DNA from: an uncultured bacterium
Lineage (GTDB): Bacteria; Patescibacteriota; Saccharimonadia; Saccharimonadales; 2-12-FULL-41-12
Assembly (NCBI GenBank): GCA_963834265.1
Contig: CAWIAU010000002.1
Span: forward strand, 75,929 to 139,928
DNA: 64,000 bases
Reading direction: 5' to 3'
Shown here: in pieces, positions 20,110 to 34,036 of the stretch
Layout of the letters: each line of letters starts with the position of its first letter
Position numbering within the stretch: the stretch's first letter is position 1
Program-made: the position numbers and the translations under genes
The notes under the pieces: model-generated
The model's input: the letters and a program-made list of their open reading frames with translations, nothing else
Told to the model about the DNA's origin: nothing
Database searches by the model: none

Positions 20110-20694
20110 ATGAAAAAGTTACGAACAATCATTGCAGCATCATTGCTAGGGGTAGCCCTGACAACTGGTTTTGCATCAGCTCAGACTGGTACCATCGGCA
20201 CAACTGGTCCCGGCTCTAACAATCAAATTACCTTCAATGGTACAACTGACATCGATGTCGACAACGACAACGACGTAAACGCATTAAACCTGAACCTTCA
20301 GGGCGCTACTTCCGGTAACGCTAACGCAAGCGGCAACACAACTGCCGGCGGTGCTACTTCCGGCAATGCCAGCAACAACGCTTCCAGCAGCACAAGCGTA
20401 TCTGTCAGCAACTCCGGCAGCTCTGCCGCAGCTCTGGCAGGACACGGTAGCGGTGGCTCTAACTCAGCCAGCATCAACCTGACTGGCCCTGGCTCTAACA
20501 ACCAGGTCGAGTTTAACGACACCTACGAAGTTGAAGTTGAGAACGAAAACGAAGTAAACGTTGTGAACTTTAACTACCAAAGCGCAAACAGCGGTGACGC
20601 AAATGTTTCCGGTAACACAACCGGTGGTTCAGCTACCACTGGTGGCGCCAGCAACACCAGCAACACCAGCACTTCTGTTAACGTCAGCAACTAA
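20110..20694 (+). CDS. Secreted protein made of two tandem 'TGPGSNN' Asn/Gly/Ser-rich modules
   Basis: Signal peptide MKKLRTIIAASLLGVALTTGFASA, preceded by an AGAGGAG Shine-Dalgarno sequence. It carries two ~85-aa repeats, each reading TGPGSNNQ.. / alternating N-x-N rungs / SGNANASGNTTAGGATSGNA / S-rich tail ending VSN. Confidence 0.8.
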   Translation: MKKLRTIIAASLLGVALTTGFASAQTGTIGTTGPGSNNQITFNGTTDIDVDNDNDVNALNLNLQGATSGNANASGNTTAGGATSGNASNNASSSTSVSVSNSGSSAAALAGHGSGGSNSASINLTGPGSNNQVEFNDTYEVEVENENEVNVVNFNYQSANSGDANVSGNTTGGSATTGGASNTSNTSTSVNVSN

Positions 20695-20835: not shown

Positions 20836-22971
20836 ATGCAGAAACTTACAGTATCAATCCGAAAGATATTCATTGCTCTCGTAATATGCGTTCAGGTTTT
20901 TGCCGCCCCTGCCTTGATCGTTTCTGCCGAATCAGCCGATGAATCATCTACTGCAGCTGCAGCTGCTTCAACAAATGAAGCTCCCGCACCTGCATCAGAA
21001 ACGGCTCCCGTGGTCGAGGTTGTTACTTCACCTCCTCCTGCTCCGACATATGTTGCGCCAGCACCCCCAACCATAGTTGCTCCCGTACCTCCTGCGGCTT
21101 TGGCACCGGGAAGCACCGGACCGCAATCCCCGACAGGAGTTTCCGGCTCAACATATGTTTTCAATTCCGTCTCAGGACTTTGGGAGAATGACCAATACAC
21201 CTGGGATCCTGTAACAAAGCAGACAAAACCTAAAGTTGCTCCTACCTATAGCTTCAATCCCGTTACGCAAATGTGGGATACAACTGAATGGTATTTCAGC
21301 CCCGAAGCAGGTAAATATGTACCCAACAAAGTATCAACAGCCATCCGGCCGGTTAGTCTTGGTGGCGGAGGAGGTGGCAATTTCTCTATCAATGGCACAG
21401 GACCTAATTCCAATAATACTATTAACAATACCGGCACTTCTACAGGAACTTTTGATTTATTTTTCAACGCCAGTATTAGCAATCAAATAAGTTCAACTAC
21501 CTCCAGTGGCGATGCATTGCTGCAGGGCAATACTATCGGAGGTAATGCTCTCAGCGGTGATGCGGAGGCTATCGCTAATATTCTGAACCTGCTGCAGTCT
21601 TCCTGGGGTTCCCAGTCTGATATTGCAACTTTTATAGCTAGCCTGGACGGGACAATATTCGGCGATCTGTTACTTGATCCTGCTGCTCTGGCAGGGGCAG
21701 CCGGTAGTTCTGATGTCGATATAACCGTCTCCAATAATGCCAGTATCAATAATGACATTAATGTGGCAGTAAACAGTGGGGATGCGACCGTATCGGGTAA
21801 CACAAAGGCCGGAGATGCAACAAGCGGTAATGCCAGAGCATTAATAAATCTCCTCAATCTCATAAATTCGTCAATAACTTCTGACAAATCTTTTATCGGC
21901 ATACTTAATATTAATGGTGATCTGAATGGTGACATTTTGCTTCCGCAGAGTTTCCTCGAATATTTGTTGTATGCAACGGGACCAAACAGCAATAATCAAA
22001 TCAATGGTGGCACCAGTAATAATCTGGCGGTTACAACGGACACTAACCGTAGCATTGTTAATGATATTGATGCTGAAGCAGGAACAGGCGATGCCTCTGT
22101 AAGCCAAAACACCAGTGCGGGCAGTGCCGGCAGCGGAACTGCCGATACAAAGGTTAATACTATGAACCTGGTGGGTCAGAACGTGAACGGGAAAAACGGG
22201 CTGCTGGTATTTGTAAATGTTTTCGGTAAATGGGTCGGCTTGCTTTTCAACGCGCCGCAAGGAACCAGCTCGATAGCAACCACCGGGCCAAACTCTAACA
22301 ATACGATTAATGATGCCGGATCAAACAAACTGACTGTGAATGCAACTGAAAATAGTCTGATCAATAACGATGTCGATGTCACGGCCCGAAGCGGAGATGC
22401 CACTGTAAGCGGCAATACATCGGCAGGAAATGCTAAATCCGGTAATGCAGATATTGGTGTCAGTATTCTGAATCTGATTGACAGTAATCTTAATTTCTCT
22501 GACTTCTTCGGAGTCCTGTTCATCAACGTTTTCGGATCATGGAATGGTAGCTTCGGAATAGATACAGCGGCTGGTAACAGACCAGCAGCAGCTGCCGGCG
22601 GACAAGGCGGAGGTACTTTTGGGTTCGTACCCGCTGCTAATCAGGCCGCTCAGCAAAATCCGGCATCAACAGCTTCCGGGCCTGCGGATAAGTTCTTTGG
22701 CTTGATTGGTTCCCTGGGATCAGGTGGAGGGAATGTAGCGGTTGCTCCTCAGACATCATCTGCTTCTGTTGTTAATGCAGGTGCTGCGGTACCGGCGGCT
22801 AATAATGCTGCGGTTGCAGCCTCCGCATCACAGGCATCTACTCAGAACTGGTGGCTCCCGCTGGTAGCAATACTGCTTGTTGGTCCCCTGCTGTACGCTG
22901 ATCGAATAGTGGCTCTTGTACGACGCGCTGAGCTATTCAGCCACATCGGCTCCCTCCGCCGTATGCCTTAG
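20836..22971 (+). CDS. Large secreted multi-module protein with Pro-rich linker, aromatic repeats, four SGNT/SGNA modules and a C-terminal TM anchor
   Basis: 711 aa. Has a signal peptide and a PAP-rich linker, followed by aromatic repeats Y.FN...G.WEND.Y.WDP / YSFNP.T.MWDT.EWYF. TGPNSNN occurs three times and SGDA.VSGNT.AG.A.SGNA four times. The C-terminus is NWWLPLVAILLVGPLLYADRIVALVRR. Confidence 0.8.
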   Translation: MQKLTVSIRKIFIALVICVQVFAAPALIVSAESADESSTAAAAASTNEAPAPASETAPVVEVVTSPPPAPTYVAPAPPTIVAPVPPAALAPGSTGPQSPTGVSGSTYVFNSVSGLWENDQYTWDPVTKQTKPKVAPTYSFNPVTQMWDTTEWYFSPEAGKYVPNKVSTAIRPVSLGGGGGGNFSINGTGPNSNNTINNTGTSTGTFDLFFNASISNQISSTTSSGDALLQGNTIGGNALSGDAEAIANILNLLQSSWGSQSDIATFIASLDGTIFGDLLLDPAALAGAAGSSDVDITVSNNASINNDINVAVNSGDATVSGNTKAGDATSGNARALINLLNLINSSITSDKSFIGILNINGDLNGDILLPQSFLEYLLYATGPNSNNQINGGTSNNLAVTTDTNRSIVNDIDAEAGTGDASVSQNTSAGSAGSGTADTKVNTMNLVGQNVNGKNGLLVFVNVFGKWVGLLFNAPQGTSSIATTGPNSNNTINDAGSNKLTVNATENSLINNDVDVTARSGDATVSGNTSAGNAKSGNADIGVSILNLIDSNLNFSDFFGVLFINVFGSWNGSFGIDTAAGNRPAAAAGGQGGGTFGFVPAANQAAQQNPASTASGPADKFFGLIGSLGSGGGNVAVAPQTSSASVVNAGAAVPAANNAAVAASASQASTQNWWLPLVAILLVGPLLYADRIVALVRRAELFSHIGSLRRMP

Positions 22972-24632: not shown

Positions 24633-25172
24633 TTAGTTACCGGAACGACGGTAACCGGCCAGCGCAAACTGAGTTGCTGCAGCGATCGCACCAAGTACGA
24701 GAGCACTGATGCCAACCATTGTCAGCACATTGCTGCTTCCGGTGTTCGGAAGAGCCTTAACTGTAACAGGAGCCGGAGTTGCAGTTGCAGCAGGGGTTAC
24801 AGGAGCCGGCCCTGCACCTTGTCCGCCCGCAGGAGCTGCAGGAGCTGGTGTTGCAGCTGGTGCTGCTGCACAAAATACTGCAAGCTGGGTTGCTGTTGTG
24901 TTAATGTTTTCCGCATTTCCGCTGGTTGCTGTACCACTTATAGTATTGCCACTAACATTTGCTCCGCCACTTACTGCAGTCTGCAGATTGACGTTTGCGA
25001 CATTTACGCCATTGGTGCAGGTAACACTCACTACATTACTGTCATTAACTGTACAGGTGTTGTTCGAACCCGGGCCAGTTGTTGTAATCGTGCACGTTGC
25101 TGCGGATGCAGCGCCGGTCATTGTACCCATTGCTATTACTGTTATTGCTAAACCTTTGAATACCTTTTTCAT
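24633..25172 (-). CDS. LPXTG-anchored surface protein carrying one 'TGPGSNN' module
   Basis: Has a signal peptide, then a TTTGPGSNNTCTV ... ANVSGNTISGTATSGNA module and an Ala/Pro linker. The sorting signal is LPNTG followed by a hydrophobic helix and RRSGN. A GAGGGAG Shine-Dalgarno sequence precedes the ATG. Confidence 0.85.
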   Translation of the reverse strand: MKKVFKGLAITVIAMGTMTGAASAATCTITTTGPGSNNTCTVNDSNVVSVTCTNGVNVANVNLQTAVSGGANVSGNTISGTATSGNAENINTTATQLAVFCAAAPAATPAPAAPAGGQGAGPAPVTPAATATPAPVTVKALPNTGSSNVLTMVGISALVLGAIAAATQFALAGYRRSGN

Positions 25173-25755: not shown

Positions 25756-25829
25756 TGGGGAGTGGCCAAGTGGTAAGGCACTGGGTTCTGGTCCCAGGAT
25801 CGGGGGTTCGAGTCCCTCCTCCCCAGCCA
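25756..25829 (+). tRNA. tRNA-Gln (anticodon CTG), CCA encoded
   Basis: Manual cloverleaf: acceptor TGGGGAG/CTCCCCA, D-arm GCC-AAGTGGTAA-GGC, anticodon stem CTGGG/CCCAG with loop TTCTGGT, and T-arm GGGGG-TTCGAGT-CCCTC. The discriminator is G, followed by CCA. Confidence 0.9.
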
Positions 25830-25935: not shown

Positions 25936-27226
25936 TGCTTAGTCTGCGGTAGATCTGCTTATTCTTAACGAATAGTGGTAAGTTTAGACCTCGTATGAAA
26001 CCCGTCTTGTTCATGAATATTGTGCCTTGTCTAAGAACATAGCTCGCATAGTTTCTGAAATGTGCTCTTTCGGAGTGCTGTCAATTCCATGATCCTTTGA
26101 TAAGCTGGCTTGTAACGCGTTTGTATTGTTCGATCTTGTTGAATAATTGCTCGCTCGGCTCAATATCGTCGAATTCTCCCGCATCCGTCATTGCAAGATT
26201 TGTTCGGTGATCATGGTTGCTGTTATTGAGCGCTCCGGACAGTCAGGGTCTTTTGTCGATTTCGTGCACCGATAGTATACATGCCTGTTTCTGCCTCCGT
26301 CCGCTCGCTTTTTGAAATGCTCTTCGACCGTCAGCGTGAGCCACACGCCCCACAGTAGAATAGATGCTTGAACGGGAATTGTCTTTGATCCCCATGCTGG
26401 CTTTTCCGGTACTAGCGAGTCCATGCGTGACTCGAACAATGTCGAACAGTTCTTTTGTGATTATCGGCGGATGCTTACCCACATAGAGCGGACCTCCTGC
26501 GGGATATTCGAAATAGCCGTAGTAGAATGGGTTAGTCAAGGTTCTGTAGATCTGACTTAGCGACAATACAGCGCCAGACTTAGTTCTGAAGTCGATACTG
26601 TCCAAGCCAGTCTTTTATGGTACGCCGCTTTGGTGCAGTCAGACCTGAGCGTTCAAACATTTCCTTAACAATCGGTGCTCGATCGGTGTCCAGCACTATG
26701 TCTCGGACGCCACCGAAAGCTCGGTTTACATAACCAATTGGCGCTGCTCCCGGTCGCCAGCCCATCTCACATTTGGCACGTATGCCACGTTTGACGTTAA
26801 TACCACGATTATCGTTCTCGAGCTTGGCTTGAGAGCACAGGATCATCAGAAGGAACTTCTCGTTCGGCGTGTTGCTGAAGCTTTGTCCAAATGTACGGAT
26901 GCGCTGTAGTCGGTTTAAGTCCATTAAATCTACAAGAGACCCAAGATCTCCTGCATTTCTGCTTAGTCGATCCGGTGCCCAAGTCAGGATTGCGTTGTAT
27001 TCGCCGTTCCTCAAGTCGTGCAGCAAGTTCGTTGAATACCGGCCTATGACCAGACTCCTTTGCCGAGAAACTCTCTTGTTTGATGACAACTACATTCAGC
27101 TCTTCGCGTGTTGCCATAGCTTGCATTTCTTTGATTTGTGAATCGATCGACATTGCCTGTGCGTTCGTCAGACTCGCTCGATTTGCGGGCATAAAGACAG
27201 TATTTAAGTTGAGCAGTATTTTCCAT
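25936..27226 (-). pseudogene. Large serine recombinase (resolvase/invertase N-domain + recombinase + zinc-ribbon), multiply frameshifted
   Basis: Fragments lie in at least 5 frame segments: YCLYARKSSESDER (catalytic Ser region), SIDSQIKEM...RPVFNEL, ILTWAPDRLSRNAGD, GYVNRAFGG..., YYGYFEYP..., YYRCTKSTKDPDCP (zinc ribbon), and a C-terminal tail down to ~25936. Confidence 0.8.
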
Positions 27227-27290
27227 CAACAACAAGGTACCGCAAATCCAGGTAAAGTCTAGCTGTGATAACATCTTAAAAACAGATATA

Positions 27291-30200
27291 ATGTTACGTA
27301 ATATGGCATTCAATGAAGATACTAGAGTCAAAATACCCGCAATCATCCACTTAACTAGGCTAGGCTACAAGTATTTTTCACTTAAAGACAAGAACTATAT
27401 ATTCGATCCCGATACCAATATCATCAAAAACGAGTTTACAAAAAGTATACTTGCCCTAAACCCCGATGCAGAGCTAGATTCAATTGAACAAGAGCTGCGC
27501 AATATACGCGAAGAGCTTAACTATGAAGACCTTGGTCGTGCATTCTATAATCGTCTTTTGGGTGATGGAGATGGTGAGCTCAAGTTAATAGATTGGAATA
27601 ATTTTTCAAACAACTCATTCCACGTCACTACTGAGCTCACGTGCAAGAACGGAGAGGATGAATTTCGTCCTGATGTCACAGTGTTTGTTAATGGTTTACC
27701 AATATCTTTTATCGAAGTCAAAAAACCGAATAATTACGAAGGAATTAAAGCTTGAGCGCGATCGTATCCAAGTTCGTTTTAAGAATGATAAATTCCGAAG
27801 GTTTATTAACATAACTCAACTTCTCGTGTTTTCAAACAACATGGAATATGACGATACCGACACTAATAAACTGCAGGGTGCGTTCTATGCAACTACTGCA
27901 AAAAACGATGATGCAAAATTCAATAATTTTCGTGAGCAAAAGAAGTCTGAATACATAGACCTTATAAAGAATGTCGATGAAGAGATAGAAGACTTTATTC
28001 TTGCAGATAACAACTGTAAAGTGATAAAGCATTCTCCAGAATTTATATCAAATACAGATATTGACACTCCTACCAATCGGCTTATATCGAGTCTATATGC
28101 GACAAATAGGCTGCATGAAGTACTAAAGTACGCGCTTTGCTATGTCGATGAGGTAGATAAAGAGACGGGCGTTGTTTCAATACAGAAGCACATAATGAGG
28201 TACCCTCAGTTCTTCGCAACCAAAGCAATAAAATCCAAGCTGGCAGAAGGTATTAAAAAAGGCGTCATATGGCATACGCAAGGCTCAGGTAAAACAGCCC
28301 TTTCATTTTACAATGTCAGTTCGTTAAAAGATTACTTTGCAAAAAAAGGTATTGTACCGAAATTTTACTTTGTTGTTGATAGGATAGATCTTGCCAATCA
28401 GGCTAAGGATGAATTTAGTAAGCGTGGATTGAAAGTTCATTCGATTGATAGTAAGGATGCGCTGATCAAGGACTTCAAGAACAATACCTCTAATGAAGGG
28501 ATGACTGTACTCAATATACACAAGTTCCGCGAAGACACTGTTGCATTGAACGATAGCGGTTATGATATAAAAGTCCAACGAATATTCTTTATCGACGAAG
28601 CACATCGTAGCTATGATCCAAGAGGATCTTTTCTTGCAAATCTATATAACTCGGATAAGGACTCCATTAAAATTGCCCTTACTGGGACGCCTTTGATTAT
28701 TTATTCAGACCATGATGACAAGGGTGACATCAAAGATTCAACACAAAAAGAAGACAGCAAGACAACTCGCAACATCTTTGGTGATTATATCCACAAGTAT
28801 TACTACAATGATTCTATACGTGATGGTTACACCCTAAAGCTTTTGAGAGAAGAAATTGAAACAAGCTATAAAGAAAAAGTTAGGGGCATAATCAGCGATA
28901 TTAAGGTGCATGCTGGTGATATCGACAAAAGAGATTTATACGCTCATGAAAAATTTGTTGATCCTATGCTCCACTATATATTGAAAGATTTTACCGAATC
29001 CAGAATACGATTCGGAGATAAGTCTATTGGTGGTATGGTTGTGTGTGACAGCTCATCTCAAGCCCGTGAAATGTTTAAACTTTTCAAAGAATCTAGCGAA
29101 GTGCACGGGCTTACATCTGCGCTGATCCTGCATGACGAAGACGACAAAGATACTCGTAAGAAGAAAACGAAAGACTTCAAAGACGGGAAGATTGATATTA
29201 TGTTTGTCTATTCAATGCTTCTAACTGGTTTTGATGCGCCTAGACTAAAAAAGTTGTATCTTGGTCGAAAGATTAGGGCTCATAATCTGCTACAAACATT
29301 GACACGTGTCAATCGTCCTTACAAAAACTTTAAATTGGGCTATGTTGTAGACTTTGCAGACATATCTGCAGAGTTTGAAATTACTAATCAAGCTTACTTT
29401 AAAGAGCTCAAATCTGAATATAGCGAAAATCTTGAAGACGAAGATCCATCAAATATCTTTGGGTCACTATTTATGAGTAAAGCAGAGATAGATCAGCAGA
29501 TCAGTGAAGTTCAAGTAGCAATATCCGACTATACAACTGAAAATCTTGAAACTTTCAGTCAGCAGATCAGCCAAGTTGATGACCGACAGCATATCTTAGA
29601 ACTTAAAACGAGCGCTAGAATCAGCGCGAGATGTATATAATGTCGCGCGACTCCTAGGCTATACGGAAATACTAGAAAAGTTAGACTTTAAGAAACTTGC
29701 GAAACTACTGACTATGGTGAGTGATCGACTTAAGCTTCTAAATCTTAAAGATGCCATGAATGACATCAACTCAAAAGAGTTACTAAACACTGCAATTGAA
29801 GATGTAATATTTAGTTTTACAAAGACGGGCGAAGAAGAACTCAAGCTACTATCTGAAGATTTGCATAATTCTGCCGGCAAAGTTCGCCATGAGCTCGACA
29901 GGAATTTCAATAAAAAAGATCCAGAATGGCTGTCGCTTTATGAGGCTTTCATTAAACTTCTCGACAAGCATAATATCGATCCAGATTCTGAAAGTATAGA
30001 CTCGATGAAATTCGAATCTGAAGAACTTAAGAGAATCTTTGAACAGATAAAAGAGCTTAATAGAAAAAATTCAATGCTGACTTGCCAAGTTTGATGGTGA
30101 CCGTAAGTTTGCAGTTATCTACAAAAATCATCAACCAACCGGTAAGGTTAGCGACAATATAGCACTATACAACCTTCTAAACGATGCAAAAGCAAAGATT

Positions 30201-30380
30201 GACACACGACTTACAAATAGTCAGGATATTCTTTCAAATCAAGGCTATTTCCGTCAGACAACAGGTGAATACATCCTTGATAGTTTTGACAATGGAAGCT
30301 ACGATCTAAACGCTCGATTAGTCCGCAATCTAATAACAAACACTGCAGATGAATATTTGGCAGAATACCAAGGAGAATAA
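27291..30380 (+). pseudogene. hsdR: Type I restriction enzyme R subunit (HsdR), at least three frameshifts
   Basis: Shows the HSDR_N start (EDTRVKIPAIIHLTRLGY, FIEVKKPN), helicase motifs (HTQGSGKT, FIDEAHRS, TGTP, LLTGFDAPRL, QTLTRVNR), and a C-terminal KFDGDRKFAVIYKN. Frame breaks occur near 27753, ~29600 and ~30085. Confidence 0.85.
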
Positions 30381-31110
30381 ATGGAACACACAGATTTTTC
30401 AAATAAAGCAAAGCAACTTATTGACGAACTTAAGGGTATTTGTGCTAGTGCTGGGCTTGGTGGTGATGCGAACGAATACAAAATAGTTACCCAAAGTTTC
30501 TTGTATAAATTCTTAAACGACAAATTCTTGCACGAAGTTGGTAAGCTTGATCAAAGCCTGAAAACGTATGAAGACCTCAAGGCAATAGACAGCGATAAGT
30601 ATGATTTATTGATGATTAAAATCGGCACAAAGACTGCTCATCTCAAACCTGAGCATTTACTAGATTATTTATTTAAGCATCAGAACGATGGTGATTTTGC
30701 GAAACTATTCGATAATACCCTTAACGACATAGCAGTTGATAACTCCGATGTATTTTCTGTCCATACTGCCGGTAACACTGAGATTCGACTTTTTGAGGAA
30801 GAATTAATTGCTGATGCAGTTAACGACAAATCTCAACATGACATCACGGCACGTAAAATTATTAACAAACTTGCTGACAGTAAGTTTGAACTAGATGAAA
30901 TTTTATCGGCAGGCTTCGACTTTTTCTCAACAATGTTTGAGTATATGATCAAAGACTACAACAAGGATGGAGGTGGCAAATATGCCGAATACTACACGCC
31001 TCATTCAATAGCGAAAATTATGGCAGAAATTCTAGTCGGTGATGATACGCCAACTAACGTTACGGCATATGACCCAGCCGCAGGTTCAGGTACTTTGCTT
31101 ATGAACATCG
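30381..31110 (+). pseudogene. hsdM: Type I R-M methyltransferase subunit (HsdM), 3'-truncated
   Basis: Has the HsdM N-domain plus AdoMet motif I (YYTPHSIAKIMAEIL...YDPAAGSGTLLMN). Homology stops before the NPPF catalytic motif. No hsdS follows. Confidence 0.8.
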
Positions 31111-31112
31111 CA

Positions 31113-31326
31113 CAAGGCTGGCCAGAAGGTTGTTGCGCTTGTTGGTGATAATGCGACTATCAAGAGACTTAATAAAGAATCCGGATACTGGGTATTGGAG
31201 CCAGTTTCAAAAAACCCAATACATAAAAAATTAATTATGGTTGAGGACTTCGCGATACAGGGTGTGGCTGTGGATGTTGTTGAAACTAGAGGGACGGTAA
31301 GTGATGGCACTAGAGGATACGCTTAG
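31113..31326 (+). pseudogene. C-terminal fragment of an S24/LexA-type peptidase (phage-repressor-like)
   Basis: The third-frame translation VVALVGDNATIKRLNKESGYWVLEPVSKNPIHKKLIMVEDFAIQGVAVDVVETR has the typical S24 C-terminal beta-strand pattern. No N-terminal HTH or catalytic Ser region is present upstream. Confidence 0.45.
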
Positions 31327-32210
31327 AACTTGGGCGCAAAGGCCAAGTAGCTCGGAACAAGACAGAATAGACAGAACAGAGCGCATGATACGAGAGGCCA
31401 TTAGTAAATCCGGCGACCCCCGCGTGAGTGGTGCTAAAGTATTTGCTAAGGGTAGCGTAGAAAATGAACACTAAATATTCGCGCTACAAGCGATATAGAT
31501 ATATGTGTCCAGAGCTAATAATGTATTTTTCACCAACTACCCCGAAGGCACAGACAATTCAACCTTTGGCAATCATCGCGTCGACTACAGCTTCAAAGAA
31601 TTTCGTCGCAACGTAGAACTTGCGCTAACAAGTCACTTTGGTATACCTGATGTTGATGTCACTGGAAATAAAGCAATCCGCATCCGAAATACAGTCTCTA
31701 GCTCACGCGTTGATGCTGATGTTATCCCTGCTTTTGAGCATCGACGGTATAGCCTTGATGGCAACCACTTCCCGGCATTGAGATAATGCCGAAAAACGGC
31801 AGCAAGGTTATCAATTGGCCGCATCATAACTACAACAACAGTCTTACTAAACGACGAGGATCTGCTCGTAGGTACCGAAAAATGGTGCGAATTCTAAAGC
31901 GCACTCGCGAAGCCATGAAAGATTCTGGTACGCAGTATGCCCACGATGCTCGTCTTTTTTGATCGAATCACTACTGTGGAACGTGCCAGATGATCATTTC
32001 GGTTTTGATAATTATTTAGATGACATTGTTAATGTGTTGACATTTCTGAAAGCGCACCTAGCTTCGGCTGACTTAGTTAGCGAATGGGGCGAGGTAAATG
32101 AACTAAAATACCTATTCCATGGACCACAGAAATGGACACGAGAAGGTGCACTCGCCTTTGTTAACGATACCGACCAGTACCTTGGAGCATCCGGTAATGA
32201 ACAGAGTTGA
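31306..32210 (+). pseudogene. CBASS-type cGAS/DncV-like nucleotidyltransferase (CD-NTase/SMODS), multiply frameshifted
   Basis: Pieces lie in different frames: MALEDTLRTWAQRPSSSEQDRIDRTERMIREAI...VFAKGS, NIRATSDIDICV (GS...DxD active-site region), VDYSFKEFRRNVELALTSHFG...RVDADVIPAFEHRRY, INWPHHNYNN..., and LIESLLWNVPDDHF... Confidence 0.7.
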
Positions 32211-32811
32211 TTACAAAAAACTGGTTTGGCTATCCGCGTTGGTGGCTATAGCTACGGTTTTGGTGTTCGTCAAAGTACAAAATCTTGTGATTGGACTTAA
32301 TATCAATACCTTTGGCATGGTTGGCACGATAGCTGGTGTTAACTGGTTGCTGTGGGAGTTGTTTAAAAAATGGCTGTGGAAGTTACCACTTTTTAGACGC
32401 TGGCTAGTGATGATTCCGAATCTAGATGGTCACTGGGAAGGTACCCTGCGAATTACTTTGGGTTGATGAGAAGAACAGGTAAGATTATTGCTCCTATAGA
32501 TACAGAAGCTGTAATCAAACAAGACCTTCTCTACTACAATCGAGCTTTACGACTAAGCGAGATGGAGAGCCGTAGTATGCATAGCCGAAGATCAGCTGCG
32601 ACCCGCACCGACGTGTTGCTGAAATTAACTACACCTACCAGTCAAGACCCAGATGCAACGGTCAACAGCGCGCAGCGCTATTCACTACAGGCTCAGGCAA
32701 AGCTGCGTCTTACGGAAAGACCGCGAAGTACGAAACGCTAAAGGGTGACTACTGGACTGACAGAAAAACAACCGGAACTATGGAGTTCTTCTCAGAACGT
32801 AGCAAGAAATA
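32197..32811 (+). pseudogene. Cap15-like two-TM beta-rich CBASS effector (S-2TMbeta), frameshifted
   Basis: The start overlaps the CD-NTase stop. It has two TM helices (LVWLSALVAIATVLVFV, FGMVGTIAGVNWLLW), then PNLDGHWEGTL. After frame breaks the C-terminal end reads INYTYQS...LKGDYWTDRKTTGTMEFF. The total length is ~205 codons. Confidence 0.55.
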
Positions 32812-32835
32812 GTTGTCTGTTGGGGGTGAAAATAT

Positions 32836-32853
32836 AGGTGTGTATACACACCT
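32836..32853. repeat. Perfect 18-bp palindrome AGGTGTGTATACACACCT
   Basis: The sequence equals its own reverse complement. It lies 25 nt after the effector stop and upstream of the next (degraded) gene. Confidence 0.9.
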
Positions 32854-32859
32854 TGAAGG

Positions 32860-34036
32860 CGCAAATACTACGAAGACCTCTATGATAAATTAACCGTAGA
32901 GTTCTGCTCGCCGTGGCATCGGTTATTATTACGATTTTTACAAAGAAGATTTTGAAAAGAAGCTCCCCAAAGACGAAAAGATCGACAGACCTGGCAACGT
33001 TTTTGTACTAAACGTCTTCTATATCAGCAGCTGTTGGCAATGAACTGCTTGAACGTTACGAGAGACGCGATCAGCACATACGTGAATGGATGGAGCGAGA
33101 CGAGGCTAAAGACGAGCAAATAGCCACGGCTAGCGCCTGACAGAAGAGCCCCATTGCTATCACTGTGGCAAACACGGGCTACGCATTACCGATAAATCCC
33201 TGATGCACAGGAGCGAAGATTACAAATAGAAGACCCTGAAGAAGTGCTTTTTATGCTGCACTGCTCACATTGCGATAAAAATAGCGCTTTCTGGGAAGAC
33301 GGCACTGCTTGGAAAGTAAAACCTAGCCTATGCCCTAAATGTAAATCAGAAGTGACGCATAAAACCACTAAAACTAAGAACGCTATCATTATTACCTATA
33401 CTTGCACATCATGTAAGCATAGCTTCAAAGACAAAATGGACTTATCGACTAAAAAAGAAAAGCCCGACCCTGAATTTGCTACCGACCGTATACACTTCTG
33501 CCTAGAAGACGAAGAATTCCGTGATCGGCTCTTTAATATGCGCCATGATTTTATGGAAATGGCTAAGCTCGGCAAAGAATTTAAGGAACGTGAAGACAAC
33601 AGGCATGTTTACGATGCTGTAAAGGAAATGAAGAAGCCTAAGATTGCCGAGCTAGTACCAATGCTTGCACCCGTACTAGAAAAGGCTGGGTATATTGAAT
33701 TTCACCTAGATAAACCTGAAATGGGTCGTGATGTGTATGCGGCTCAGCTGTTTAGACAGTAAGCCCGATCGAAACGATAACGACAGCAGAAAGACATTGA
33801 AGAAGCTAGTTGATAGCGCACTTAGCGATGCAAACTGGCGATTAATGAGCGATGGCATATCTTATCGACTTGGGTACCTAAACGGCCGTGTTAAAGCCTA
33901 TGAAGGCGAAGATGCCATGAAAGAGTTAGTTATCAAGAGCGGAAAGTTGAAGAAGAAGGCAGTAAGTAGCGATGTTAGCTCAGAAGGCTTCAATAAAACC
34001 TATAAAGCGCCGGACGGCACTGAAATAATCCTTTAA
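32860..34036 (+). pseudogene. Multi-zinc-ribbon protein of unknown function, frameshifted
   Basis: Coding-like pieces lie in three frames: ...NELLERYERRDQHIREWMERDEAKDEQ, HCYHCGK, then 33244-33762 with CSHCDK...CPKCKS...CTSCKH, then 33728-34036. I recognise no family. Confidence 0.45.

What the first reader, a model, noticed from the sequence alone, without database searches (positions are those of the whole stretch)
31306..32811. Remnant of a minimal (type I-like) CBASS operon: CD-NTase overlapping a Cap15-like two-TM beta-barrel effector
Re-framing recovers the CD-NTase hallmarks: ...KGS..., then NIRATSDIDICV carrying the DxD catalytic pair, then RVDADVIPAF carrying the third acidic residue, and a C-terminal LIESLLWNVP helix.

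The effector start (32197) overlaps the cyclase stop. The effector shows two TM helices followed by PNLDGHWEGTL, and a C-terminal LKGDYWTDRKTTGTMEFF. This matches my recollection of S-2TMbeta/Cap15 effectors.

CBASS in CPR-type, ultra-small genomes is rarely discussed. Here it is caught in the act of decay, directly downstream of an S24-type repressor fragment, which may hint at repressor-controlled expression.
Basis: partly seen in the sequence, partly recalled or inferred. Interest (0 to 1): 0.6.

Follow-up and report, generated by a model that had tools for sequence, protein, structure and literature searches.

The report
Decayed CBASS phage-defence operon remnant
This is a broken, non-functional copy of a known two-gene anti-phage suicide system (a CdnE cyclase plus the Cap15 membrane effector) in a decayed mobile island of a Saccharibacteria genome; the copy itself is ordinary, but its intact relatives start with a LexA-type self-cleaving repressor that nobody seems to have described for such systems.

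Summary
Frame-corrected translations of 31304-32197 and 32197-32812 match a CBASS cyclase (PADLOC E=4e-96, full length) and a Cap15 2TM effector (PADLOC 3e-37; Pfam Cap15_CD_rec above its cut-off). The closest solved structures are clade E CD-NTases (ClCdnE, 1e-53).

The host is a Saccharimonadales bacterium (CPR). Many other Saccharibacteria assemblies carry an intact, 79-98% identical cassette: lexA-like, cdnE, cap15 and a 397-aa Zn-ribbon gene.

The window copy is dead. A clean 6,445-nt deletion (junction 31114|31115) removed the cassette promoter and operator, 146 codons of the repressor, and most of a type I R-M and terminase block. cdnE carries 8 single-base indels, cap15 carries 19 indel events, and the Zn-ribbon gene carries 9. 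The whole island from 25.95 to 34.04 kb, next to tRNA-Gln, is broken, including the serine integrase and hsdR.

One caveat: the indels are insertion-biased, purine-biased, not in homopolymers, and clustered. That is atypical for natural decay, so some may be consensus errors. Only the reads can settle this.

The system is a known kind, type I CBASS with CdnE and Cap15, as in Staphylococcus schleiferi. The modest novelty is the LexA/S24 regulator and the fourth gene, seen in the intact relatives.

The parts
25756..25829 (+). tRNA-Gln (CTG), intact. It marks the left border of the decayed island.
   Evidence: ARAGORN and Rfam at 62 bits. The DNA after this tRNA differs in the nearest relative found, L092.
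25952..27290 (-). Large serine recombinase (integrase) pseudogene, split over at least 4 reading-frame pieces.
   Evidence: The fragments hit Resolvase positions 8-64 and 54-143, Recombinase, and Zn_ribbon_recom. tblastn with the intact L087 recombinase hops frames -1, -2, -3, -1. The intact homologue matches PHROG integrase at 1e-60.
27291..30380 (+). Type I restriction enzyme hsdR pseudogene, in three frames.
   Evidence: Pfam HSDR_N, SWI2_SNF2/ResIII and T1R_D3-like fall on separate ORFs. It is 90% amino-acid identical to the intact L087 HsdR but read in frames 1, 2 and 3, with +T at 29603 and +G at 30079.
30381..31114 (+). 5' fragment of hsdM (about 245 codons), cut off by the deletion. 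The ORF runs out of frame into the next piece and stops at 31148.
   Evidence: The Pfam N6_Mtase match stops at profile position 64 of 311. It aligns to L087 hsdM exactly up to L087 3366.
31114..31115 (.). Junction of a 6,445-nt deletion relative to the L087-type island. Lost: the hsdM 3' part, hsdS, terminase large and small subunits, ParB-methyltransferase, a 196-aa gene, the cassette promoter and operator, and lexA-like codons 1-146.
   Evidence: blastn maps L087 1-3366 to window 27747-31114 and L087 9812-12629 to window 31115-33952. There is a short, imperfect microhomology at the junction.
31115..31326 (+). 3' fragment (70 codons) of the LexA-like (wHTH + peptidase S24) repressor gene. 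It keeps the catalytic Lys but lacks the HTH, the cleavage site and the Ser.
   Evidence: 100% nucleotide identity to L007, with no differences. 93% amino-acid identity to L004 LexA-like residues 147-216. Aligned with E. coli LexA. Weak Pfam Peptidase_S24 match to profile positions 73-116.
31304..32197 (+). cdnE (clade E CD-NTase) pseudogene with 8 single-base indels. Translation from the start codon stops after 57 codons. The GS, DxD and D codons survive but lie in different frames.
   Evidence: PADLOC Cyclase at 4.4e-96. 94% identical to intact P0001. Indels listed against L001, L004 and L007. PDB ClCdnE at 1.2e-53. Invariant G51 S52 D64 D66 D139 in the family alignment.
32197..32812 (+). 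cap15 (2TM + beta-barrel cyclic-nucleotide receptor) pseudogene. The TM part (32197-32456) has no indels. The receptor domain carries 19 indel events (16 insertions, 3 deletions).
   Evidence: PADLOC 2TM effector at 3.1e-37. Pfam Cap15_CD_rec at 35.8 bits, above the 31.2 cut-off. Frame hops shown by tblastn. Indel list against L007.
32840..34036 (+). Pseudogene of the conserved fourth cassette gene (Zn-ribbon protein, about 395-397 aa when intact). It has 9 indel events, and its substitutions are mostly synonymous.
   Evidence: tblastn with L087 397-aa protein hops frames. Against L007 there are 4 insertions, 5 deletions and 91 substitutions, 68 of them at third codon positions. No family scores above threshold.

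Best explanation
Window 31115-34036 is a dead copy of a four-gene cassette: lexA-like repressor, cdnE, cap15 and a Zn-ribbon gene. The cassette circulates among Saccharibacteria on a prophage- or satellite-like island. That island also carries a type I R-M system, terminase genes, a ParB-methyltransferase and a serine integrase.

How the intact form works (inferred). The LexA-like protein binds a palindrome that fills the spacer of its own promoter. This keeps the operon low until RecA-stimulated self-cleavage lifts repression. On phage infection, CdnE makes a cyclic dinucleotide. Cap15 binds it with its C-terminal beta-barrel and disrupts the membrane through its two TM helices, killing the infected cell.

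What the window shows. This machinery cannot work as written:
- A 6.4-kb deletion removed the promoter and operator and two thirds of the repressor.
- cdnE is interrupted after codon 57 and shifts frame 8 times.
- The cap15 receptor domain is shredded by 19 indel events.
- The fourth gene, the integrase and hsdR are also frameshifted.

The whole 8-kb island next to tRNA-Gln is a fossil of a mobile defence island in an otherwise intact, compact Saccharimonadales genome.

What is shown: the identity of the genes, the lesions, the deletion, and the existence of intact orthologous cassettes. What is inferred: the regulation, the signalling nucleotide, and that the indels are real mutations. I put about 0.6 on the indels being mostly real.
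For: Identity. PADLOC cyclase 4.4e-96 and 2TM effector 3.1e-37. Pfam Cap15_CD_rec is above its cut-off, and the intact orthologue scores 83 bits. PDB CdnE structures match at 1e-53 to 1e-50. The catalytic G51 S52 ... D64 x D66 ... D139 are invariant in 17 homologues, and their codons are present in the window.

Intact cassettes. L004, L007 and L087-L091 all carry LexA_DNA_bind+Peptidase_S24, CD_NTase_C, Cap15_CD_rec and a 397-aa gene, with overlapping or closely spaced genes. Nucleotide identity to the window is 98.2% for L001, 94.3% for L007, 92.9% for L087 and 79% for L088.

Lesions. The same 8 cyclase indels appear against three independent intact references. Sister lineages L007 and L087 have 0-1 indels over the same stretch. 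The deletion maps to the base.

Island. Terminase large subunit 5e-76, small subunit, integrase 1e-60 and a repressor family are found in the intact relative. The integrase, hsdR and hsdM fragments are in the window.

Host. MetK is 81-85% identical to Candidatus Saccharibacteria / Saccharimonadales proteins.

Regulator. The cleavage site (Cys-Gly), Ser and Lys align with E. coli LexA. An invariant palindrome, TTACACTAC(A/T)AGTGTAA, sits between TTG(T/C)AT and TATAAT, 7 nt before the ATG, across alleles that differ by 20% elsewhere.

Known counterpart. The CdnE03 + Cap15 two-gene operon of S. schleiferi, flanked by a type I R-M system, kills by membrane disruption (PMC10686824).
Against: The indel spectrum is not what natural decay usually gives:
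- There are 27 indel events against 26 substitutions in cdnE plus cap15.
- Across the whole 31115-33951 segment, insertions outnumber deletions 25 to 12.
- Across that same segment, the single bases gained or lost are G15, A13, T4, C0 on the + strand (p=1e-4).
- Only 9 of 32 lie next to an identical base.
- No substitution creates a stop codon.
- The events are strongly clustered (dispersion 2.8, p=2e-6).

This resembles insertion-prone long-read consensus error. None of 5 island ORF fragments is reproduced in Logan re-assemblies, against 8 of 15 core proteins, which is a weak signal. I could not see the reads or the record.

The regulation model is untested. The consensus promoter scan did not flag the site because its -35 element is weak. 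The signalling nucleotide is unknown, since CdnE enzymes make different products.
Confidence: 0.85

Rival explanations
1. The CBASS genes, and perhaps the whole island, are intact in the organism. Under this view most of the 37 small indels are consensus errors from a locally low-coverage or unpolished long-read patch, for instance because the mobile island is present in only part of the population. The window would then hold a working cdnE-cap15 pair that has merely lost its repressor and promoter, or not even that if the junction is a misassembly.
For: In cdnE plus cap15 the indel-to-substitution ratio is about 1 (27 to 26). Over 31115-33951 there are 25 insertions against 12 deletions, the indels are single-base and purine-biased, they are mostly outside homopolymers, no substitution creates a stop codon, and errors come in dense patches. 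Sister branches have 0-1 indels for 39-77 substitutions. hsdR and the integrase are also broken only by 1-nt shifts. Island ORF fragments are absent from Logan re-assemblies, 0 of 5.
Against: The other roughly 55 kb of the window show no broken genes, so the error rate would have to rise more than 300-fold locally. Error-free stretches of 270-345 nt alternate with patches holding one event per 18 nt, a scale too fine for long-read coverage changes. The window carries four unique amino-acid changes at positions conserved in all close relatives, with a natural transition bias, which fits relaxed selection. The deletion junction is clean to the base on both sides. The Logan signal is not significant once short core proteins are used as controls, 1 of 5.
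Confidence: 0.33
2. The LexA-like gene is simply the CI-type master repressor of a prophage. On this view cdnE-cap15 are passenger genes co-transcribed with it in the lysogen, as rexAB are with lambda cI. The repressor would control the element's lytic genes rather than being a dedicated CBASS regulator.
For: In L087 and L007 the gene lies divergent from a block with terminase small and large subunits and a ParB-methyltransferase, and the island has a serine integrase. The protein matches PHROG repressor families.
Against: The lexA-like, cdnE, cap15, Zn-ribbon block moves as a unit into other contexts. In L088-L090 and L004 it follows hsdR and a small FtsK_gamma gene, after a terminator-like hairpin, and it keeps the same invariant promoter and palindrome. 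A 41%-identical LexA-like gene also sits upstream of CdnE-Cap15 in a Nitrospiraceae MAG. The two readings are not mutually exclusive.
Confidence: 0.25
3. The broken genes are still expressed as a functional system through programmed frameshifting or as split subunits.
For: The net frame change across cdnE is zero, and several indels compensate each other within a few codons.
Against: Stop codons follow the first shift: translation ends at ENEH* after codon 57. There are 27 shifts in 1.5 kb with no slippery-site pattern. The native promoter is deleted. All close relatives encode single uninterrupted proteins.
Confidence: 0.01

Closest known systems
Type I-B CBASS of Staphylococcus schleiferi (Ssc-CdnE03 + Cap15; PMC10686824)
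   Same: [quoted passage not shown] Cap15 kills by membrane disruption. PDB CdnE enzymes are the closest solved relatives of the cyclase here.
   Different: The window copy is a pseudogene. Its intact relatives carry a LexA-like first gene and a conserved Zn-ribbon fourth gene that the staphylococcal operon lacks. The activating signal (cabRNA there) and the nucleotide product (cGAMP there) are unknown here.
Cyclic di-pyrimidine-synthesising CdnE enzymes (ClCdnE 7x4a, EfCdnE 7x4c, 7x4f; PMC10442399)
   Same: These are the best sequence matches among solved structures, at E=1e-53 to 7e-50 over nearly the full length.
   Different: The relationship is by sequence only. I did not examine the donor- and acceptor-pocket residues that set pyrimidine specificity, so the product cannot be assigned.
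DNA-damage-responsive controllers of immune operons: CapW/BrxR, CapH+CapP, CapK+CapS (10.1101/2022.04.27.489752; PMC13373217)
   Same: In both cases a repressor is encoded at the promoter of a CBASS operon. A close relative of this cassette (L005/L006) actually has an HTH_3 + Peptidase_M78 pair, which is CapH/CapP-like, in the corresponding position.
   Different: Here the regulator is one LexA-family protein (wHTH + S24 self-cleaving peptidase) encoded in the operon as its first gene. The three described families are a WYL ssDNA sensor, an HTH plus separate metallopeptidase, and a kinase plus STAS repressor. Neither paper I checked mentions LexA or S24.
lambda cI-rexA-rexB (established knowledge, not tested here)
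   Same: An S24-family repressor gene is co-transcribed with abortive-infection genes on a temperate element.
   Different: The defence genes are unrelated. Here the cassette also occurs away from the phage-like genes.

Membership tests
CD-NTase (CBASS cyclase), clade E | Full-length similarity to CD-NTase profiles and to characterised CdnE enzymes | tested here: met
   PADLOC Cyclase PDLC00801 at 4.4e-96 over 3-295 of 302 residues. PDB ClCdnE 1.2e-53, EfCdnE 6.6e-50, Rm/Em CdnE 3e-31. Homologues carry PF26305 CD_NTase_C and PF18144 SMODS.
CD-NTase (CBASS cyclase), clade E | Pol-beta-type active site: GS motif plus the acidic triad DxD...D | tested here: met
   G51, S52, D64, D66 and D139 are invariant in 17 homologues. 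The corresponding codons (KGS, SDIDI, VDADV) are present in the window but in different frames, so the site is recoverable but not expressible.
CD-NTase (CBASS cyclase), clade E | Uninterrupted coding sequence (a functional gene) | tested here: not met
   There are 8 single-base indels relative to three intact references, and a stop follows codon 57.
CD-NTase (CBASS cyclase), clade E | Synthesis of a cyclic di- or oligonucleotide | not testable with these tools
   This needs an enzyme assay on an intact orthologue.
Cap15 (S-2TM-beta effector) | C-terminal beta-barrel cyclic-dinucleotide receptor domain (Pfam PF18153) | tested here: met
   The stitched window protein scores 35.8 bits against a cut-off of 31.2, covering profile positions 1-120 of 122. 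The intact orthologue L087 scores 83.4 bits.
Cap15 (S-2TM-beta effector) | Two N-terminal transmembrane helices | tested here: inconclusive
   Two hydrophobic stretches (LVWLSALVAIATVLVFV and FGMVGTIAGVNWLLWELF) are visible in the sequence. PADLOC 2TM effector profiles match from residue 1. Pfam Cap15_TM scores only 15.9 bits, below its 28.2 cut-off. No TM predictor was available.
Cap15 (S-2TM-beta effector) | Encoded immediately downstream of a CD-NTase | tested here: met
   The genes overlap at TAATG in the window and its relatives. A Cap15 homologue lies next to the cyclase in 76 of the 80 genome loci, 73 of them on the same strand just downstream.
Type I (minimal) CBASS | Cyclase plus effector only, with no Cap2/Cap3 (E1/E2/JAB) or HORMA/TRIP13 ancillary genes | tested here: met
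   Neighbouring genes in L007, L087 and L088 carry none of these domains. The extra genes are a LexA-like regulator and an unassigned Zn-ribbon protein.
LexA / S24 self-cleaving repressors (upstream gene) | N-terminal winged-HTH, an Ala/Cys-Gly cleavage site, and a Ser-Lys dyad | tested here: met
   This holds for the intact relatives: Pfam LexA_DNA_bind 9.7e-10 and Peptidase_S24 3.4e-23. VACG, GDSM and TIK align with E. coli LexA A84-G85, S119 and K156 (the E. coli sequence and residue numbers come from my own knowledge). The window keeps only the last 70 residues, including the Lys.
LexA / S24 self-cleaving repressors (upstream gene) | RecA-stimulated autocleavage and operator binding | not testable with these tools
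   The only evidence is a conserved palindrome in the promoter spacer.

The most novel reading that the evidence does not exclude
In Saccharibacteria, and independently in a Nitrospiraceae MAG, CdnE-Cap15 CBASS operons begin with a LexA-family (wHTH + S24) self-cleaving repressor. Its operator is a palindrome filling the spacer of the operon's own promoter. [quoted passage not shown] It travels with an uncharacterised Zn-ribbon fourth gene that may be a new CBASS accessory protein. The window holds only the fossil of this cassette.
Probability: 0.4. Interest if true: 0.55.

Novelty: new member of a known kind. Interest (0 to 1): 0.3.

Why it matters
On its own, the window shows only that an ultra-small episymbiont genome once carried, and has lost, a standard abortive-infection system on a mobile island. 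That is a small data point on the turnover of costly defence genes in reduced genomes.

The relatives are more useful. They show that CBASS is common and horizontally mobile among Saccharibacteria. They also point to an undescribed way of wiring CBASS expression to DNA damage, through a LexA-type repressor inside the operon, and to a conserved unknown fourth gene. Both can be tested directly with the intact sequences identified here.

The peculiar indel spectrum is also a practical warning. 'Pseudogenes' in MAG accessory islands should be checked against the reads before they are interpreted as decay.

Tried and rejected
- **Pfam on the stitched cyclase** gave only sub-threshold NTP_transf_2 hits. 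The Pfam copy scanned here gave neither the stitched nor the intact cyclase a match above threshold (PF26305 appears only as a precomputed annotation on the homologues). PADLOC and the PDB search settled the assignment instead.
- **Locating the window's own record** failed. The look-up of encoding contigs did not return the 191,838-nt contig, so the sequencing technology and coverage remain unknown.
- **Searching for independent copies of the deletion junction and of the indel alleles** found nothing. The JGI metagenome scans and the IMG/VR scans gave no hits, so these tests were uninformative.
- **Using presence in Logan re-assemblies as a test of the indels** gave 0 of 5 island fragments against 8 of 15 core proteins. 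Short core controls were only 1 of 5, so the result is inconclusive.
- **Defining an empty integration site in the nearest relative (L092)** failed. The DNA after tRNA-Gln is different there, with no shared flank.
- **The PDB sequence search with Cap15** gave no hit.
- **The consensus promoter scan** did not flag the promoter I propose for the cassette, because its -35 element is weak.
- **Rejected outright:** programmed frameshifting or split-gene function, and a non-CBASS nucleotidyltransferase such as a toxin-antitoxin MNT. The latter is excluded by the full-length CdnE match and the Cap15 linkage.
Full report

Yes. The region contains only short ORFs.

I stitched the frames into a 302-aa and a 204-aa protein.
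- The cyclase matches the PADLOC CBASS cyclase profile PDLC00801 at E=4.4e-96 over essentially its whole length.
- The effector matches the PADLOC 2TM effector profile PDLC00702 at E=3.1e-37.
- Pfam Cap15_CD_rec is above its curated cut-off even for my crude stitch, at 35.8 against 31.2 bits.
- Pfam gave the cyclase only sub-threshold nucleotidyltransferase hits.

A search of solved structures places the cyclase with clade E CD-NTases: ClCdnE 1.2e-53, a cyclic dipyrimidine synthase 1.7e-51, and EfCdnE 6.6e-50. In an alignment of 17 homologues, G51, S52, D64, D66 and D139 are invariant. The window keeps those codons, but in different frames.

**2. Intact relatives and exact lesions**

A protein search found 1,766 homologues. 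The best is an uninterrupted 298-aa protein 94% identical to my stitch. Its contig, L001, is 98.2% identical in DNA to window 31115-32428 and differs by 16 substitutions and 8 single-base indels.

The same 8 indels appear against L004 (82% identical) and L007, so they are derived in the window. They are +G 31460, +A 31473, +A 31513, -G 31770, +G 31853, -A 31861, -A 31951 and -G 32183. Reading from the start codon, translation stops after 57 codons.

In cap15 the transmembrane part (32197-32456) has no indel. The receptor domain has 16 insertion and 3 deletion events between 32457 and 32795.

**3. What the cassette looks like when whole**

L004, L007 (a GTDB representative MAG labelled Candidatus Saccharibacteria), L087 and L088-L091 all carry the same four genes:
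- a 216-aa LexA_DNA_bind + Peptidase_S24 protein, whose end overlaps the cyclase start by about 23 nt;
- the 297/298-aa cyclase;
- the 199-aa Cap15, overlapping the cyclase at TAATG;
- after 26 nt, a 395-397-aa Zn-ribbon protein of unknown family.

The exact cyclase protein of L088 occurs on at least 15 contigs. No Cap2/Cap3 or HORMA/TRIP13 genes are present, so this is a type I CBASS with two extra genes.

Among 80 loci from one genome per species, a Cap15 homologue lies next to the cyclase in 76, and 73 of those are just downstream on the same strand. The hosts span many phyla, including other CPR lineages (Daviesbacteria, Zambryskiibacteriota).

The closest characterised system is the S. 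schleiferi CdnE03-Cap15 operon, which is likewise flanked by a type I R-M system (PMC10686824).

**4. The surroundings**

It is identical in DNA to L007.

L087 aligns to the window in two blocks that abut exactly: L087 1-3366 with window 27747-31114, and L087 9812-12629 with window 31115-33952. The window therefore has a clean 6,445-nt deletion. It removed:
- the 3' two thirds of hsdM, and hsdS;
- the terminase large and small subunits;
- a ParB-methyltransferase and a 196-aa gene;
- the cassette's promoter;
- codons 1-146 of the repressor.

Further left, hsdR is read in three frames. A large serine recombinase next to tRNA-Gln is split into at least four pieces. To the right, the Zn-ribbon gene has 9 indel events.

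Every gene between 25.95 and 34.04 kb is broken. The flanking acylphosphatase and response regulator genes are intact, and so are the other long ORFs of the window.

The intact island has phage-like genes: terminase large subunit 5e-76, small subunit, integrase 1e-60. None of the island proteins I scanned matched a capsid or tail family, so it is a prophage remnant or a satellite-like element.

**5. Host and mobility**

MetK from the window is 81-85% identical to proteins labelled Candidatus Saccharibacteria / Saccharimonadales.

Ten of the 13 core proteins found in the collection stand alone in their 90% clusters. The cyclase falls into an 11-member 90% cluster drawn from other Saccharibacteria assemblies. 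The cassette is therefore horizontally mobile within the group.

**6. How it most likely worked**

In the intact relatives, the 40 nt before the repressor ATG are almost invariant across alleles that differ by about 20% elsewhere. The sequence is TTG(T/C)AT, then the 17-nt palindrome TTACACTAC(A/T)AGTGTAA, then TATAAT, then 7 nt. A repressor bound there would occlude the promoter.

The consensus scan did not flag the site because its -35 element is weak. In L088 a terminator-like hairpin precedes it.

The repressor has a Cys-Gly cleavage site, a Ser and a Lys aligned with those of E. coli LexA.

I infer the following sequence of events.
1. The operon is autorepressed.
2. RecA-stimulated self-cleavage derepresses it.
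3. CdnE is activated during infection.
4. Cap15 binds the nucleotide and permeabilises the membrane.

Steps 3 and 4 rest on the characterised homologous systems. Steps 1 and 2 are inference.

The same block occurs both next to the terminase genes (L087, L007) and after hsdR and a small FtsK_gamma gene (L088, L004). A 41%-identical LexA-like gene precedes CdnE-Cap15 in a Nitrospiraceae MAG. This favours a dedicated regulator over a prophage master repressor, although the two roles are not exclusive.

A sister cassette, L005/L006, instead has an HTH_3 + Peptidase_M78 pair, which is CapH/CapP-like.

The papers that define the three known DNA-damage-responsive controller families do not mention LexA or S24. 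My text searches found no paper describing CBASS encoded by Saccharibacteria (one of the hits checked).

**7. Real decay or sequence error?**

The deletion is a structural lesion with both sides mapping to the base, and it alone removes the promoter and the repressor. The small indels are stranger.
- Over 31115-33951 there are 37 indel events, 25 insertions and 12 deletions.
- In cdnE plus cap15 there are 27 indel events against 26 substitutions.
- The sister branches L007 and L087 have 0-1 indels for 39 and 77 unique substitutions.
- The single bases gained or lost are G15, A13, T4, C0 (p=1e-4).
- Only 9 of 32 lie next to an identical base.
- No substitution creates a stop codon.
- The events are clustered (index of dispersion 2.8, p=2e-6).

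From general knowledge, bacterial pseudogenes usually show a deletion bias and far more substitutions than indels. An insertion-dominated spectrum is typical of error-prone long reads.

Several points argue against an artefact.
- The rest of the window is clean.
- Clean stretches of about 300 nt alternate with very dense patches.
- The window has four unique amino-acid replacements at positions conserved in all close relatives.
- The substitutions in the Zn-ribbon gene are mostly synonymous (68 of 91 at third codon positions), as expected for a gene that was functional until recently.

Attempts to find independent copies of the junction or the indel alleles gave nothing. The Logan comparison is not significant.

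I put about 0.6 on the indels being mostly real and about 0.33 on them being mostly artefact. Only the reads can decide.

**8. Verdict**

The finding is correct and well read. It is a fossil of a type I CdnE-Cap15 CBASS in a Saccharimonadales genome, immediately downstream of the stump of its LexA-like repressor.

As a system it is a known kind, and here it is non-functional, so its interest is low to moderate. The parts worth following up lie in the intact relatives: the LexA-type in-operon regulator with its promoter-embedded palindrome, and the conserved Zn-ribbon fourth gene.

Noticed in passing
window 32840-34036; L007 11523-12710; L087 11520-12713; L005 5292-5603: A conserved Zn-ribbon protein of about 395-397 aa always follows cap15 in the Saccharibacteria cassettes. 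This includes L005/L006, whose upstream regulator is CapH/CapP-like rather than LexA-like. No Pfam or PADLOC family reaches threshold. It may be an undescribed CBASS accessory gene. In the window it is frameshifted.
   Followed up: partly
L087 9340-9375, L088 9340-9375, L004 1128-1163 (deleted in the window): There is an invariant promoter-like site before the lexA-like gene. Its 17-nt spacer is the palindrome TTACACTAC(A/T)AGTGTAA. TATAAT lies 7 nt before the ATG, which suggests a leaderless, autorepressed operon.
   Followed up: partly
L013 8940-11506 (Nitrospiraceae MAG): A LexA-like gene 41% identical to the Saccharibacteria one, with the same Cys-Gly / Ser / Lys features, lies upstream of CdnE-Cap15 with an 80-aa gene between them. 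The S24-CBASS linkage therefore recurs in an unrelated phylum.
   Followed up: partly
window 31115-33951 (also 27291-30380 and 25952-27290): The indel spectrum is unusual: insertion-biased, purine-only on the + strand (G15, A13, T4, C0), mostly outside homopolymers, strongly clustered, and with no nonsense substitutions. It may be a consensus artefact or an unusual mutational process.
   Followed up: partly
window 31114|31115: This is the clean junction of a 6,445-nt deletion that fuses a truncated hsdM out of frame to codon 147 of the lexA-like gene. There is only a weak microhomology (TGG.CA.GA) at the breakpoints.
   Followed up: yes
window 32836-32853: A perfect palindrome, AGGTGTGTATACACACCT, lies over the start of the Zn-ribbon gene. 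Its GTGTA/TACAC half-sites resemble the operator half-sites upstream of the lexA-like gene in relatives.
   Followed up: no
window 25756-25829 and L092 341-414: tRNA-Gln is followed by entirely different DNA in the window (the island) and in the nearest relative found (MetK 91% identical). The gene order between metK and the acylphosphatase gene also differs, so this locus is variable.
   Followed up: partly
window 20110-20694, 20836-22971, 24633-25172 (-): Three secreted or surface proteins carry repeated 'TGPGSNN' motifs, and one ends in an LPNTG sortase-type signal. No Pfam family was found for the two I tested.
   Followed up: no
L005 2390-3336: A sister CdnE-Cap15 cassette (67% identical cyclase) has a divergent HTH_3 + Peptidase_M78 pair and a DUF3892 gene upstream instead of the LexA-like gene. 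Regulators are therefore swapped between closely related cassettes.
   Followed up: no
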